From the NCBI GenBank assembly GCA_964016885.1, contig OZ024743.1, forward strand, positions 298,158,001 through 298,222,000: DNA of 64,000 bases. Reading direction: 5' to 3'. Shown here one piece after another: positions 6,879 through 41,345 of this stretch. Position 1 is the stretch's first letter. The number at the start of each line of letters is the position of its first letter. The translations under genes were made by a program, and so were the position numbers. This DNA is from Eledone cirrhosa. Its lineage: Eukaryota. The notes under the pieces were generated by a model. That model was not told the origin of the DNA. It saw only the letters and a list, made by a program, of their open reading frames with translations, and did no database searches.

Positions 6879-7483
6879 ATATTGATATACTTGGGGAGGG
6901 TCATATTGTTGTAATAATATTGCCAGAAATAATAACAGAACGCACTCACTGTTTTGTTGGTTTTCGCTTCTGTATCTTTTATATCTCCATAGTTAAATCA
7001 TTTGGTCCTCAATGTTTATCATTGACTGACCAATGGTAAAAAATACAGATATAAATACATATATATATAGTCTAACAAAGTTCTTTCGTTGCACATCTGC
7101 AACATCATCAGTGGTACTATTATATTTCCTCCTGTTGTATTGTATGTCTACACCATTTTTATTTTATCAGATAAACAAATAAAATAAAAACAGATAAAAT
7201 AAAAATGGCATAGACATACAATACAACAGGAGGAAACATGATAATAGTACCACTGATGATGTTGCACATGTGCAATAAAAGAACTTTGTTAGACTATATA
7301 TATGTATTTATATCTGTATTTTTGACCATTGGTCAGTCAATGATAAACATTGAGGACCAAATGATTTAACTATGGAGATATAAAAGATACAGAAGCGAAA
7401 ACCAACCAAACAGTGAGTGTGTTCTGTTATTATTTCTGGCAATATTATTACAACAATATGACCCTCCCCAAGTATATCAATAT
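6879..7483. mobile_element. Palindromic solo Penelope pLTR pair (~290 bp inverted arms) in the last IQCA1 intron
   Basis: 6879-7168 is the reverse complement of 7193-7483. The arm is near-identical to 20310-20590, the 3' end of the Penelope element at 20.3-23.0 kb. Confidence 0.9.
7073..7116 (-). ncRNA. Minimal type-I hammerhead ribozyme motif
   Basis: UACCA-CUGAUGA-U-GUUGCA(GAUG)UGCAAC-GAAAG(AA)CUU-UGUUA. The mirror copy at 7248-7291 has CGAAA changed to TAAAA. Confidence 0.7.
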
Positions 7484-7605
7484 ATATATATCAAGAGATG
7501 GTAACATGAATGGACCTGTTATTTTTCTCTAAAAAAATCTTTTTCCACATTTCCGGCCTGCTCGTTTCCTCAACCTTTCTATTTCTGTTTTAATTTTTCA
7601 TTCTT

Positions 7606-7641
7606 TCTTCTGATGAAGGACTAGTGTCTGAAACGTTAAGA
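7606..7641 (+). ncRNA. Minimal type-I hammerhead ribozyme motif
   Basis: UCUU-CUGAUGA-A-GGAC(UAGU)GUCU-GAAAC-GUU-AAGA, with palindromic stem III AACGUU. Confidence 0.75.
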
Positions 7642-7762
7642 CCCTCTTCCTGCTATTTCAAGCGTTAAACTAATATATTTCTTTTGTGTTGTTATTTTTG
7701 TTATTTCTGTTTACCTTTTACACACACACACACACACACACACACACATATATATATATATA

Positions 7763-7956
7763 TACGAGGGGTCTGAAAATTTCTTGGCTTTAAGGGTTTT
7801 GTGAAAGGGTAGAGATGTTATCTTTACAGGGGAGGTAGGACTGCTGCAATAAGTGTGTGACTCTGAGAGGGGAATATGTTGAAGAAAATCATAATTAACT
7901 GATCCTCCTGTATTTTCTTTTATCCAAAGCTAGGAACTTTTCAGCACCCCCTTGTA
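7763..7956 (+). mobile_element. Non-autonomous Tc1/mariner element (MITE-like)
   Basis: Imperfect TIRs tacgaggggtctgaaaatttcttggcttt / aaagctaggaacttttcagcacccccttgta within (TA)n. Internal remnant CNKCVTLRGEYVEE resembles a mariner transposase C-terminus. Confidence 0.85.
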
Positions 7957-8925
7957 TATATATATGTGAAAATAGTAGTGGCCAGTATGGTTGTAAGAGA
8001 AGTTGTCTAACTTTGCATACAATAATAAAGTAGTACAACCGTAAATGGCTGAGCTGCATGGCGTGAGGTCATTATGTTCATGGATGGAGCTGGGGAGTAG
8101 TGAGGACAGAGTAAATGTTAGGAAACATTCACCACCAACGATGTCACAGTCACAGCACTGGGTGCCACATGAAATCAGAAGAGTGCGCAAGAAAATTAAG
8201 CACACATGGATGTGAGCACAGGAATGTGTATCGGTAGTGTGTGTGGGCAGGTGCACATACTTGTGCACACATCCAAAAGTGTAGAGTGGATGGTTATGTG
8301 TGTGCAGAAGTAGATGTGTGTGGAGTGCTATGTAAATACGGATGTTGTAAATGTGGGTGTGTATTGTGTGGTGGCTGGAGTTGTGTGTGTGTGTATTTGT
8401 GCATGTATTTGTGTATGAGAGCAAGGGTAAAGAGAGGTTAAAAGAACTGTGATGGGGAATTGAGTCCATACAGAAAAGAGGTTCCAAGGCAGAAAATTAA
8501 TTTCTGCTTGGTCCTGGTGTGAGTAGCTGTGGATCTATGGTGTAAAAGGAGGCCAGAGACAGTGAGGTGTTGAGTAAAGTGGTTGGGGAATGGAAGTGAC
8601 GAGCAACAGGAGTGTCTTTACCTAGTCGTATATATGTGTAACTGTTAACTTAACTTTGATAACTTTGATAGTTATGTGATATATGTTTAGTCAATTTTTT
8701 GAATTAGTAGGCATAATGATTTTCCCTGGTGCCATTGAAAGAAGGCTGAGTTTTTAGAGTGCTGGACTAACTGTAATACAGTTTCTAGGATTATGCAATC
8801 TTGGTTCCAATTCATATCCCACCAAAACTGATGTTGCCTTTCACACATCAGAATACCAGTAATACATTGTAACTCATTAAAAAATGTTTCTTTTCTATTT
8901 TCTATCACATTTTTCATCGAAACAG

Positions 8926-38132: not shown

Positions 38133-38168
38133 TTTCGACGTTTCGGACTTAAGTCCTTCATCAGGAAA
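38133..38168 (-). ncRNA. Canonical minimal type-I hammerhead ribozyme
   Basis: UUUC-CUGAUGA-A-GGAC(UUAA)GUCC-GAAAC-GUC-GAAA. All core nucleotides present, GUC triplet. Lies in a non-coding unit (38055-38745) between (TA)n tracts. Confidence 0.85.
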
Positions 38169-39038
38169 GTTGAGAGGAACTCCGAGAGGGAGTAAGGAGG
38201 ATTGTAAGGAGGATTGTAAGGAGGGAAGTTTGCAAGTAAATATCACAAAAAGAAGGGAAAAATAAAAATAAATGTAAACAAAAAAAAGAAGTGAAAATAA
38301 AGGAAGGGTGTATAGGTCCGAGATGGCAAGGGTCTGGTAGTGTGTATAGGGGTGGGTTGAGTTGGAGAGGGGAGAGAGAAAGAGTGGGGGAGAAGCAAGA
38401 AAATCAGAGTCCGGGTGGGGATGGCGGAAGGTAGGTGTGTATATATGTGTAGATGTAAGTATGTGTGTGTATGTATGGATGTAAGTATGTGTGTGTGTGG
38501 ATGTAAGTATGAGAGTCTGAAAGGAAGCGAGTGTATGTGAATGTAGGTTCTGAAAAGACATTGTGTATCTATTGAAGTGGTGTATATGTCTGTGCGCGTA
38601 TATGTTCCTGTATGGGTATGTGTATGTGTGCATGTGGATGGAGGGGGTCGGATGTGATGAGAATGTGTCGAGTCCGGAGGAGGTGTGGGGTGAAGTGTGG
38701 GTGTATGTGTGGTTGAAAAGAAGTGAATGTGTGTGAGAGCGTATATATATATAAATATGTATATATATATGTATATATATATATATATATATATATATAT
38801 ATATATATATATATATATATATATATATATATATATATATATGTATATGTATATATATATATATATATATATATATATATTTAGAAACACACAGATACAC
38901 GCGGACACACACATATATACATGAATGCATCCGCACCCAACTGTGAGTTAAGGGTGCCGACTTCACCGATGTTGCTCAATGAATGACTGGGACAGACCAA
39001 TTCAGTTGAACCAGACTGAACCAGTATCAGAGTTAAAA

Positions 39039-39435
39039 ATACATTATGAAGAGAGAAGAAACATTTAGATATAATTCGTAATAAAATGTATCATACCTAA
39101 ACTGCTCCTAAATTCCTCGACTACGTAGTTTCGTGGCATAAACAAAAACAATATATCAAAGATATAGAGTCCTTGCGAGGTCTGCCGACTTATCAAGAGG
39201 ATACCTCATTTTACTAGTCTCAAGAACGCGTCTACACGACGTGAGAAAGAATCCCACTAGTAAAATGAGGTATCCTCTTGATAAGTCGGCAGACCTCGCA
39301 AGGACTCTATATCTTTGATATATTGTTTTTGTTTATGCCACGAAACTACGTAGTCGAGGAATTTAGGAGCAGTTTAGGTATGATACATTTTATTACTAAT
39401 TATATCTAAATGTTTCTTCTCTCTTCATAATGTAT
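39039..39435. repeat. Palindrome with 180 bp arms and 37-nt spacer, intact hammerheads on both strands
   Basis: 39039-39218 pairs with 39256-39435. Motifs at 39114-39201 (-) and 39273-39360 (+). Confidence 0.95.
39273..39360 (+). ncRNA. Type-I hammerhead ribozyme, U3-A8 core variant
   Basis: UCCUC-UUGAUAA-GUCGGCA...UGCCAC-GAAAC-UACGUA-GUC-GAGGA. Stem III ACUACGUAGU is a perfect palindrome. Confidence 0.8.
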
Positions 39436-39554
39436 ATATATATATATATATATATATATATATATATATATATATGTGTATATGTATATATGTATATGTA
39501 TATATATATATATATATATATATATATATATATATATATATGTATGTATATGAT

Positions 39555-41345
39555 TGCACATGCAAAATGATTGCACATGCGGTAGGGGCCAGCATAAAAT
39601 TAACCCTTAAGGAACATATGTTCAAATTTAATGGTAAAACATATGCCCAAGAGGAAGGAGCAGCCATTGGTGTTAGCATTGCAGGCGACATAGCTAACTT
39701 ATTCATGGTATGGTGGGACAGTAGACTTAAACAAAATCTTAAAGAACAATTAGAAGACAGCTTAACCCTGATAATGTACTCCCGCTACGTTGATGATATA
39801 AACATCGTAGTTAAGACACCCCCACTAGAGAACAGTCAGGAACTAGAGAAAAACACAATGGAAAGCATCCAGCAAATAGCAAACTCCATCCACCAGAGCA
39901 TTAGAGTTACTATAGACTACCCAAGTAGACACCCCAACCATCGATTACCTGTACTAGACACAGAGCTCTGGTTAGATACAATTAACAACCAAAAACAAAT
40001 CCTCCATTCCCATTATGCCAAACCCATGACTTCCAAACATCTGATCCACCGAAACTCGGCCATTTCGGACCATACCAAAATCAACATACTGATTGCGGAT
40101 TTGGTACGGGTGATGAGAAATGTGTCCCGCATGTGCAACCCCGAAGAACTAGAGAGACACATACAACACTTCATCCACCGTATGCAGTTCTCTGGCTGCA
40201 ATCAGAGAGATAGAATCAGAGTGTATAGAGGAGCCAGAACCAAATGGGAAAAAATGGTAAATAATGACATAAATGGGACCTGCCCCTTGTATAGGAGCAA
40301 ATTTTGGAATAGAATAGAAAGAACTAGGAACAAGGCCAATAGAATAAACTCATGGTATGATAGCAATAAATACCAGAGTGTAATGTTCATCAATACAACC
40401 CCTAGAGGCGAACTAGCCTACAAATTTAGAAGGGCCCTAAATAAACATAAACTCAATATTAAGATAGTAGAAATACCAGGTACCTCCGTAAAAACACTTA
40501 TTAGCAAGACATACCCGTTCCAAAGACCCTCATGTATAGATAAGAAATGTATAACCTGTAAAATAAGCCCCCATATTAACTGTAAAACTAGAAATGTAGT
40601 GTATAGCATAAGATGTACTGAAGGACAATGTAGAAACAAAAATATAGTGTACATAGGTGAGACAGCTCGTAGTATAGGGGAACGAATAAATGAACACTGG
40701 CGAGACCTTCAAGATAATAAAGAATCATCTGTGCTCTACCAACATGCTAAGATAGAACACAAGGGTAAATTAGAGAACATAGAAATAAAAATAGAATCCA
40801 CACACAGAAAAGATGCAATGTTTAGGCAAATTACAGAGGCAGTAAGCATAAAAGAATTACAACCAAAATTAAATAGAAAATATGAGTGGAACAGCAACAT
40901 CACAACTTACAATTAAGGACAAAATGAAAACACACACACACATAGAACAAACAACCAACCAACAACATGTAAATAAATAAATAAATAAATAAATAAATAA
41001 ATAGATAAATGAACACAAACACACACAGACACGCGGATGTGGCGCATGCGCAAACTGAGCACACAACACACACACAGAAACAAAATGGCGTAGGACAGAA
41101 GAAAGGAAAGGCACAGAAACAAAGAGAGGAATCCCCAGTCACTGAAGAGGTCACAGAGTGTGTGACGAAAGGACTATGACTATATATAAACAACTATCTG
41201 GTTGTGGAACCAACCAACCAACCAGAAATTTATAAGTTTGTAGATTTGTAAATTTATAAATATATAATAAATTGAAGTGAAAGCAACTGGTGCGTGTGTT
41301 TCTTATTGGCAACATGACCCTCCCAAAGTATAACAATATATGTAT
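39555..41345 (+). mobile_element. 5'-truncated Penelope-like element (Neptune-like) with uninterrupted RT-GIY-YIG 3' ORF
   Basis: ~450 stop-free codons to 40916: GAAIG, YSRYVDD, LPVLD, CIDKKCITC, VVYSIRC..YIGETARSIGERINEH, RQITEAV, LNRK. The ORF-track N-terminus is TA repeat. Confidence 0.95.
41137..41181 (+). ncRNA. Minimal hammerhead ribozyme in the 3' pLTR
   Basis: AGUCA-CUGAAGA-G-GUCACA(GAGUG)UGUGAC-GAAAG(GA)CUA-UGACU. Confidence 0.82.

What the first reader, a model, noticed from the sequence alone, without database searches (positions are those of the whole stretch)
6879..41345. Dense hidden array of hammerhead ribozymes from many unrelated families
Seen: type-I hammerhead topology (stem I - YUGANRA - stem II - GAAA - tiny or palindromic stem III - NUH - stem I) at 7073(-), 7606(+), 9500(-), 11748(-), 18189(-), 20497(-), 32449(-), 38133(-), 39114(-), 39273(+) and 41137(+). 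Degenerate versions occur at 12151, 13570, 13927, 23092 and 33904. The stems differ completely between families yet still pair, and nearly all lie in short units beside (TA)n. Known: Penelope-like element pLTRs carry minimal hammerheads that can cleave as dimers. Inference: much of the apparently unannotated inter-microsatellite DNA here is ribozyme-bearing Penelope debris or non-autonomous (retrozyme-like) units, roughly one motif per 2-3 kb in this stretch.
Basis: partly seen in the sequence, partly recalled or inferred. Interest (0 to 1): 0.85.

Follow-up and report, generated by a model that had tools for sequence, protein, structure and literature searches.

The report
Ordinary Penelope hammerheads, genome-wide, some crippled
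This stretch holds about a dozen kinds of small hammerhead RNA motifs, predicted to cut themselves, near the ends of broken repeats that sit in TA runs and are shown or likely to be Penelope-type jumping genes; such motifs are already known and occur at a similar rate across this genome, but one lineage kept spreading with a likely crippled core.

Summary
The motifs are real: all 16 listed sites exist, and a type-I descriptor finds 6 (strict) or 8 (relaxed) in the window against about 0 in shuffles. They are not a special array. Evenly spaced genome samples (1.18 Mb) give one per 16-20 kb, so the window is about twice background (P about 0.09), and the genome holds roughly 150,000-190,000. The 16 sites fall into 12 families. 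Copies have fixed 3' ends at (TA)n, ragged 5' ends and inverted arms. Four families are firmly, and one weakly, tied to Penelope-like RT + GIY-YIG frames. One (39114/39273) is a 593-nt non-coding tandem unit of retrozyme type. Minimal hammerheads in Penelope pseudo-LTRs, their family diversity and dimer cleavage are published (PMC4209133). Two things add interest: the very high load, and a lineage (23092, 33904) whose two subfamilies amplified with fixed non-canonical cores while keeping their stems. This fits in vitro data that cleavage is dispensable for insertion. Cleavage and expression were not testable. The scan noted similar elements elsewhere in this genome and fixed core variants in other genomes.

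The parts
7073..7115 (-). Family A hammerhead (CUGAUGA; 6-bp stem II; only 2 bp of stem I next to the core; predicted cut after 7078) in one arm of an inverted pair 6840-7485
7249..7291 (+). Family A inverted partner, G12 mutated (broken)
7606..7642 (+). Family B minimal hammerhead (palindromic 4-nt stem III, predicted cut after 7637); lies on the sense strand in the last intron of an IQCA1/DRC11-like gene; no ORF link shown
9500..9568 (-). Family C hammerhead (8-bp stem I, palindromic 8-nt stem III, predicted cut after 9506); arm of inverted pair 9463-9890; family tied to a Hydra-type ORF
9694..9759 (+). Family C inverted partner, G5 mutated (broken)
11747..11813 (-). Family D hammerhead (long perfect stem II, predicted cut after 11752); no ORF link shown
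12151..12193 (-). Family J degenerate motif (8-nt first core strand, stem II unpaired in this copy); no other copy among the fetched loci
13557..13650 (-). Family K, decayed copy; relatives show type-I order with a long stem III; most relatives are truncated before the core
13927..14025 (-). Family M, type I with a 72-nt stem-loop II, G8A in this copy; 945 nt downstream of the ORF remnant at 14945-16372
14945..16372 (-). Broken Penelope-like RT/endonuclease remnant (Hydra-type C-terminus)
18188..18228 (-). Family E hammerhead (U3-A8 core; A13G in this copy; palindromic stem III in the family); broken inverted partner at 18302-18342 (+); no ORF link shown
20497..20539 (-). Family A hammerhead in the 3' pseudo-LTR of the element at 20310-23030
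20836..23012 (-). Frameshifted, 5'-truncated RT + GIY-YIG ORF of family A (Neptune/Nematis-type linker)
23091..23174 (-). Family I2 motif: first core strand CCGUCGA (U4C + A6U) fixed in the subfamily; stems I and II and palindromic stem III kept in the family
24449..25120 (-). GIY-YIG endonuclease end of the family I ORF (CxCX5C, CxxC, CxH: Hydra-type motifs)
32449..32517 (-). Family C hammerhead, second subfamily (predicted cut after 32455)
33904..33993 (-). Family I1 motif: first core strand CUGAAAGA (one extra A after A6) fixed in the subfamily
38132..38168 (-). Family F minimal hammerhead (GUC site, predicted cut after 38137); unit 38060-38740; no ORF link shown
39114..39200 (-). Family G hammerhead (U3-A8 core, bulged long stem II, 10-nt palindromic stem III, GUC site) in the arm with the longer 3' end (38880-39218)
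39274..39360 (+). Family G hammerhead in the arm with the shorter 3' end (39222-39432); both arms are partial copies of a 593-595-nt non-coding tandem unit
39549..40916 (+). 5'-truncated RT + GIY-YIG ORF of family H (97% identical to the 609-aa frame in L075)
41137..41181 (+). Family H hammerhead in the 3' pseudo-LTR (predicted cut after 41176); the element ends at about 41335 in the likely ORF-start tail, then (TA)n

Best explanation
The motifs are type-I hammerhead sequences lying 40-240 nt from the fixed 3' ends of 5'-truncated repeat copies inserted at (TA)n; five families are tied to Penelope-like RT/GIY-YIG reading frames, one is a 593-nt non-coding tandem unit, and the rest are likely ends of such elements too. 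Inferred mechanism: the element's endonuclease nicks (TA)n, and reverse transcription starts at one of two fixed sites just downstream of the hammerhead. It runs towards the 5' end and usually stops early, often with an inverted second arm. Because the hammerhead sits near the start point, many of the short copies carry it, and repeated targeting of (TA)n piles many families together. The template is mostly uncut (or re-joined) at the 3' hammerhead. In active tandem elements the short or palindromic stem III would allow cutting only as a dimer or with protein help, releasing the element RNA from longer transcripts. The scattered single copies here are likely dead passengers. Family G is likely a non-autonomous retrozyme moved by a Penelope-type enzyme.
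For: Descriptor hits far above shuffles and core-mutated controls. ORF upstream in 52 of 90 family H and 15 of 45 family A motif hits (overlapping loci counted twice); the same endonuclease C-terminus upstream of 4 long family C copies and 4 family I loci; a pLTR-ORF-pLTR copy with an inverted arm in L354 and ORF + motif in L355. Atlas look-alikes are RT/GIY-YIG clusters at 0.96-0.98. Fixed 3' ends in two classes and ragged 5' ends in all 8 families examined. In the unbiased sample 40 of 47 H/A matches reach the 3' end, while their starts run from -1612 to +117; 34 of 47 cross the cut site and none starts at it. (TA)5 lies within 300 nt downstream of 85% of 71 motifs against 22% of 4521 random positions. 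Two stem II pairs change on both sides between sister families A and H. Co-folding gives the double-hammerhead fold as the minimum for 9560, 32509 and 39278. Published: PMC4209133, PMC8557442, PMC11167929.
Against: No ORF link found for B, D, E, F, J, K (F: 0 of 34 hits within 1.7 kb), so these could be non-autonomous. Pfam support for the ORFs is below curated cut-offs, and no tree was built. Co-folding did not give the double hammerhead for 6 of 9 motifs, and the stem III of family A has no stable self-duplex. The covariation reflects a few events inherited by many copies, the 30 rows were picked from 53 by an anchor that included GAAA, and two of its five measures did not beat the shuffles. 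No cleavage or expression data: only contigs were available, and the one RNA run laid 2 pieces.
Confidence: 0.88

Rival explanations
1. The stretch is a functional, locally selected ribozyme array (for example processing transcripts of the locus).
For: All 8 relaxed hits lie in 7.6-41.1 kb, about 4x background for that hand-picked stretch (P = 0.005 uncorrected). One intact motif (7606+) lies on the sense strand of an IQCA1-like intron.
Against: Whole-window density is within the range of sampled blocks (P = 0.085-0.13). Orientations are mixed, the families are dispersed genome-wide, and 3 inverted partners and 5 listed copies carry core or stem defects.
Confidence: 0.03
2. Most short units are independent non-autonomous retrozymes or SINE-like elements, not truncated autonomous elements.
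For: Family G is such a unit: 593-595-nt tandems, no long ORF, 43% GC, circular fold z = -7.2. B, D, E, F, J, K have no ORF link in the loci held.
Against: A, H, C, I (and weakly M) are tied to ORFs. Shared upstream sequence varies continuously, to over 900 nt in F and 574 nt in D, and no second motif in tandem was seen in these alignments.
Confidence: 0.25
3. The motifs are chance matches in AT-rich, palindrome-rich DNA.
For: Rfam finds no hammerhead; most monomers fold no better than shuffles; the relaxed descriptor gave 7 false hits in one satellite block.
Against: 58 strict hits against 0-1 in shuffles, and 0 and 3 with mutated cores; exact stem III palindromes in 36 of 80 hits and G10.1-C11.1 in 46 of 80, neither required by the descriptor.
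Confidence: 0.01
4. The 'degenerate' sites are intact hammerheads wired in a scrambled (non-circularly permuted) order.
For: Earlier scan notes report such forms elsewhere in this genome (unchecked AI notes); type-SGC ribozymes exist (PMC10085705).
Against: Alignments of families I, K and M read in ordinary type-I order. A six-permutation descriptor found no non-type-I hit in the window and no SGC hit in the 1.18-Mb sample; it was strict and would miss variant cores.
Confidence: 0.03

Closest known systems
Minimal hammerheads (min-HHR) in pseudo-LTRs of metazoan Penelope-like elements (Cervera and De la Pena 2014, PMC4209133; parts 1-2 of 4 read)
   Same: Type-I topology, short or palindromic helix III, extra nucleotide after A9, U3-A8 variant, many divergent families per genome, mostly single motifs from truncated elements, pairs on opposite strands 100-700 bp apart.
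   Different: Load: about 150,000-190,000 motifs estimated here against about 9,000 (Xenopus tropicalis) and 4,000 (coelacanth) there, with different descriptors. Several families here have much longer helix II (up to about 70 nt).
Hydra-clade and Neptune/Nematis-clade EN+ PLEs (Craig et al. 2021, PMC8557442; passages and section 11)
   Same: Families C and I show CxCX5C, CxxC and CxH (and DKT in L354) with (TA)n insertion, as in Hydra. A and H show CX4CxxC and a CCHH-like endonuclease, as in Neptune/Nematis. Inverted truncated arms and a one-sided tail.
   Different: Clade assigned by motif inspection only. Tails here are about 45-160 nt against 30-40 bp described. Family I lacks the canonical core said to be universal in Hydra elements.
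Metazoan non-LTR retrozymes (PMC7229834, passages; bioRxiv 10.64898/2026.07.22.740005, part 1 of 5 and passages)
   Same: Family G: tandem non-coding units, each with a type-I hammerhead, GC under 45%, strongly self-paired circular fold.
   Different: 593-595 nt (170-400 nt in the first paper, within the 51-972 bp of the second); U3-A8 core; Penelope-type inverted arms with two fixed 3' ends (+80, +243). Circular RNA not shown.
Anolis Poseidon element PAc (Frangieh et al. 2024, PMC11167929; parts 1-2 of 4)
   Same: Two reverse-transcription start sites giving the tail; AT-rich target; uncut RNA is the main substrate and hammerhead mutants still insert, which matches copies crossing the cut site here.
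   Different: That is in vitro evidence for one element, with the ORF starting inside the ribozyme; here the likely ORF start lies about 140-175 nt downstream of the cut site (families H, A) and the evidence is genomic.
Natural hammerhead core variants U4C, A6C, A6a (Perreault et al. 2011, PMC3088659; PMC7151607; passages)
   Same: I1 has the A6a insertion; I2 has U4C and a change at A6. Both positions are reported to lower activity.
   Different: The double change U4C + A6U was not found in the passages read; here the variants are fixed in high-copy retroelement subfamilies.

Membership tests
Type-I minimal hammerhead of PLEs | First core strand CUGANGA (or UUGANAA) | tested here: met
   11 of 11 main sites; not met at 12151, 13927, 23092, 33904
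Type-I minimal hammerhead of PLEs | GAAA, A15.1-U16.1, NUH and paired helices I and II | tested here: met
   8 of 11 main sites pass the descriptor; 18189 has A13G; 7073 and 20497 have a 2-bp proximal helix I
Type-I minimal hammerhead of PLEs | Short or palindromic helix III allowing a dimer | tested here: met
   Palindromic in B, C, F, G, E family, I2; double-hammerhead minimum fold for 3 of 9 motifs co-folded; not palindromic in A, H, D
Type-I minimal hammerhead of PLEs | Compensatory changes among related families | tested here: inconclusive
   Two helix II pairs change on both sides between A and H; 89.2% of cells paired against 82.4% shuffled, but few independent events
Type-I minimal hammerhead of PLEs | Site-specific self-cleavage | not testable with these tools
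   Only contigs available
EN+ Penelope-like element | Single ORF with RT and C-terminal GIY-YIG | tested here: met
   Families A, H, C, I; weak for M; not shown for B, D, E, F, J, K; absent from G
EN+ Penelope-like element | Pseudo-LTRs with the hammerhead flanking the ORF | tested here: met
   L354: family I2 motifs 4570 nt apart around RT and EN frames
EN+ Penelope-like element | Inverted 5'-truncated arm and one-sided tail | tested here: met
   Inverted pairs at 6879/7295, 9463/9631, 39034/39256; two 3' end classes
EN+ Penelope-like element | RT phylogeny within a PLE clade | not tested
   No named reference proteins in hand; clade by motifs only
Non-LTR retrozyme (family G) | Tandem units each with a type-I hammerhead | tested here: met
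   593-595-nt spacing in L002/L003, L006/L007, L356, L320
Non-LTR retrozyme (family G) | No protein coding; low GC; self-paired circle | tested here: met
   Longest stop-free frame 134 codons, no match to three PLE loci, GC 43%, circular fold z = -7.2 against 30 shuffles
Non-LTR retrozyme (family G) | Expressed as linear and circular monomer RNA | not testable with these tools
   No raw RNA reads offered
Non-LTR retrozyme (family G) | Target-site duplication | not tested
   Flanks are (TA)n, where a duplication cannot be read
Non-circularly permuted (SGC/CSG/GCS) hammerhead | Blocks S, G, C in a scrambled order | tested here: not met
   No such hit in the window; families I, K, M read in type-I order

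The most novel reading that the evidence does not exclude
This genome carries on the order of 100,000 Penelope-borne hammerheads from 20 or more families, and within them one Hydra-type lineage has twice fixed a crippled catalytic strand (CCGUCGA, CUGAAAGA) while keeping helices I and II, the stem III and the cut site, and kept amplifying. These are natural knock-outs showing that cutting is dispensable for spread in vivo and the fold is kept as a protein-binding scaffold; in the boldest form they are substrate-only halves cut in trans by intact relatives through the shared palindromic stem III.
Probability: 0.3. Interest if true: 0.65.

Novelty: new member of a known kind. Interest (0 to 1): 0.42.

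Why it matters
As filed, it is known biology in a new genome. It matters in two ways. First, the load is high (about 50-60 motifs per Mb by extrapolation) and invisible to Rfam; a cephalopod genome paper reports only 235 Rfam hammerheads (PMC6962438). Second, the role of the hammerhead in endonuclease-bearing Penelope elements is an open question (PMC8557442, PMC11167929). Sister subfamilies with intact, insertion and double-substituted cores, all amplified in one genome, make that question directly testable with short natural RNAs.

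Tried and rejected
Rfam scan: no hammerhead family, only microsatellite and hairpin matches. Pfam on 14 window frames: RT only weakly for the Penelope frames, no GIY-YIG. Sequencing runs: 7 runs, all contigs, one RNA run with a small share; they cannot show RNA ends or circles; laying them on 23040-23460 was uninformative at the core because the window copy has a small deletion there. 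Two look-ups of earlier findings by sequence and one by nearby place returned nothing. The idea that short copies begin at the cut site was rejected: 2 of 47 starts lie within 10 nt after it, none at it. Scrambled-order hammerheads were rejected for the window; that script also found none in the sample, so I did not reproduce the earlier notes. L029/L030 looked like two pseudo-LTRs 4027 nt apart but are a tandem duplication of an inverted insertion. Seven relaxed hits in block L263 were dropped as a satellite. The U3-A8 class alone was not clearly above shuffles in the strict scan (6 against 0-3). Near-identical copies of the window at two other places on the same contig are segmental duplicates and not independent. 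Lunse et al. 2017 (PMC5785218) was not held; only its title was seen.

Full report
Observation. A strict type-I descriptor gives 6 hits in the window against a mean of 0.0 in 40 local dinucleotide shuffles. A relaxed version, adjusted after I had seen the motifs, gives 8 against 0 in 20 shuffles. Of the 11 main sites, 8 pass. 7073 and 20497 have only two base pairs of helix I next to the core in all family copies, and 18189 carries A13G. Three broken inverted partners were missed (7249, 9694, 18302). Rfam reports no hammerhead at E <= 1.

Is it an array? I sampled 118 blocks of 10 kb at round coordinates, mostly on the four largest contigs. The strict descriptor gave 58 hits; five shuffles gave 0, 0, 0, 0, 1; cores mutated at G5 or U4 gave 0 and 3. 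The relaxed one gave 80 hits in 22 clusters, of which I dropped 7 from one satellite block, leaving 73. That is one motif per 16-20 kb. The window's 6 and 8 compare with 3.1 and 4.0 expected (P = 0.10 and 0.085). Extrapolated to the 3.0-Gb assembly, the count is about 147,000 (strict; Poisson range 112,000-190,000) or 185,000 (relaxed; bootstrap 129,000-246,000). Inverted pairs count twice and the sampling is not strictly random. So the window shows the genome's background, somewhat enriched.

What the units are. The 16 sites fall into 12 families. Nine searches of the own genome found dispersed copies on several to many contigs for each family tried. In all 8 families examined, copies share sequence only to a fixed point 40-240 nt past the predicted cut site, often in a short and a long class, and then run into (TA)n; upstream they share anything from under 100 nt to over 1.4 kb (these copies were the best matches to a query holding the motif). 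In the unbiased sample, 40 of 47 matches to the H reference (some from its sister A) reach its 3' end, their starts scatter from -1612 to +117, 34 cross the cut site and none starts at it. (TA)5 lies within 300 nt downstream of 85% of 71 motifs, upstream of 35%, and after 22% of 4521 random positions. Inverted arms are seen at 6879/7295, 9463/9631 and 39034/39256.

Link to Penelope-like ORFs. 41137 lies about 220 nt after an RT + GIY-YIG frame (39549-40916) that is 97% identical to a 609-aa frame in L075. 20497 follows a frameshifted sister ORF at 20836-23012. An ORF hit lies upstream of 52 of 90 H and 15 of 45 A motif matches (overlapping loci counted twice). Four long copies of family C share one endonuclease C-terminus, and L355 has a 589-aa frame followed by the motif. 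Family I has its ORF end at 24449-25120, and L354 shows motif-ORF-motif 4570 nt apart plus an inverted arm. Family M has an upstream hit in 2 of 11 matches. Atlas look-alikes of both long frames are RT/GIY-YIG clusters; Pfam GIY-YIG scores stay just under the cut-off. By the motifs listed in PMC8557442, C and I look like Hydra and A and H like Neptune/Nematis; no tree was built. B, D, E, F, J and K have no repeated ORF link in the loci held (F: 0 of 34). Family G is different: tandem units of 593-595 nt, no long frame, 43% GC, circular fold z = -7.2, two fixed 3' ends at +80 and +243, in 4 of 118 blocks.

Structure. Between sister families A and H, whose kinship rests on the ORF and the 3' tail, two helix II pairs change on both sides (C-G/U-A and A-U/G-C). 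In 30 rows chosen from 53 distinct ones, 89.2% of cells pair against 82.4% in shuffles, but these are few events, the anchor included GAAA, and two of five measures were not above the shuffles. Exact stem III palindromes occur in 36 of 80 sampled hits and G10.1-C11.1 in 46 of 80, neither being required. Co-folding two copies gives the double hammerhead as the minimum for 9560, 32509 and 39278, and not for the other six motifs. Most monomers fold no better than shuffles.

The odd lineage. 23092 and 33904 are not one-off decay. Anchoring on the 3' end, 19 of 23 rows from the I2 search read CCGUCGA and 21 of 25 from the I1 search read CUGAAAGA; one sampled block gave each form independently, and two more divergent relatives in L154 read CUGAGGA. 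The searches favour copies like the query, so these fractions are upper bounds for the family. Both flanking motifs of the near-complete copy in L354 have CCGUCGA, and 18 I2 copies average 95% pairwise identity. Helix I, a mismatched helix II and stem III are kept, with paired changes between subfamilies seen by eye. The base of helix II is unpaired in all forms, so even the CUGAGGA form is atypical. U4C, changes at A6 and an insertion after A6 each lower activity in other hammerheads (PMC3088659, PMC7151607). That these cores are crippled is inferred, not shown.

Mechanism. Shown: the motifs, their position near fixed 3' ends, ragged 5' ends, (TA)n flanks, ORF links for some families. From the literature: PLE hammerheads cut poorly and as dimers (PMC4209133); reverse transcription starts at two internal sites that define the tail, AT-rich DNA is nicked, uncut RNA is the main substrate and hammerhead mutants still insert (PMC11167929). 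Inferred: copying starts just past the hammerhead and often stops early, so short copies carry it; repeated (TA)n targeting stacks families; most single copies are dead; G borrows a Penelope-type enzyme.

Novelty. The core of the finding is published: minimal hammerheads in pseudo-LTRs, many divergent families, mostly single truncated copies, opposite-strand pairs, the U3-A8 variant (PMC4209133, parts 1-2 of 4). Animal retrozymes as non-autonomous PLE derivatives are also in print (PMC7229834, passages; bioRxiv 10.64898/2026.07.22.740005, part 1 and passages). Published counts are about 9,000 in Xenopus and 126,247 in axolotl. I found no report of this load in a cephalopod or of an amplifying PLE subfamily with a fixed broken core, but the library lacks most subscription papers, Lunse et al. 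2017 was not held, no supplements were read and repeat databases could not be searched. Earlier scan notes describe the same community and retrozyme-type palindromes on other DNA of this genome, and fixed core variants in other genomes; they are leads, not support. Their scrambled-order hammerhead lead was tested and does not apply here.

Verdict. Real feature, new members of known kinds, not a special array. Interest 0.42, carried by the genome-wide load and the crippled-core lineage.

Noticed in passing
window 307-482, about 5010-5240, 8926-9045 (+): Last exons of an IQCA1/DRC11-like gene (PDB match E = 6e-18 for the first exon; last exon read; middle exon read by eye). The intact motif at 7606 (+) is in its last intron, on the sense strand.
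   Followed up: partly
window 9300-9450, 13545-13830, 33140-33760: Family K is very abundant (130 matches among the loci held) and has a long stem III that could fold as a monomer; most copies stop before the core.
   Followed up: partly
G000 C4 about 298.40-298.43 Mb and 312.46-312.48 Mb (L096, L097, L126, L127, L186, L187): The window region is segmentally duplicated twice on the same contig at 92-100% identity.
   Followed up: no
window 57800-64000: Satellite with 1.3-kb higher-order units built from shorter 190-420-nt pieces; related pieces at 52690-53190.
   Followed up: no
window 53670-56640: Long degenerate 6/12/24-nt tandem array, with stop-free low-complexity frames.
   Followed up: no
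window 48577-48790, 49538-49725, 52076-52235, 52833-52975, 10085-10233: Dispersed repeat with weak tRNA-like Rfam matches at 52167 and 52911, probably a tRNA-derived SINE.
   Followed up: no
window 16181-17500, 26173-28980, 36000-37480, 42200-46420, 49893-50984: LINE remnants (RT with PHD-like finger; other RT and endonuclease-like frames), without hammerheads nearby in 41.3-64 kb.
   Followed up: no
L295, L304, L316 (sampled blocks): Further compact hammerhead families absent from the window, including a U3-A8 family seen 4 times and a three-copy family in L304.
   Followed up: no
L356:1-1327: Another tandem repeat of about 467 nt near the family G array.
   Followed up: no
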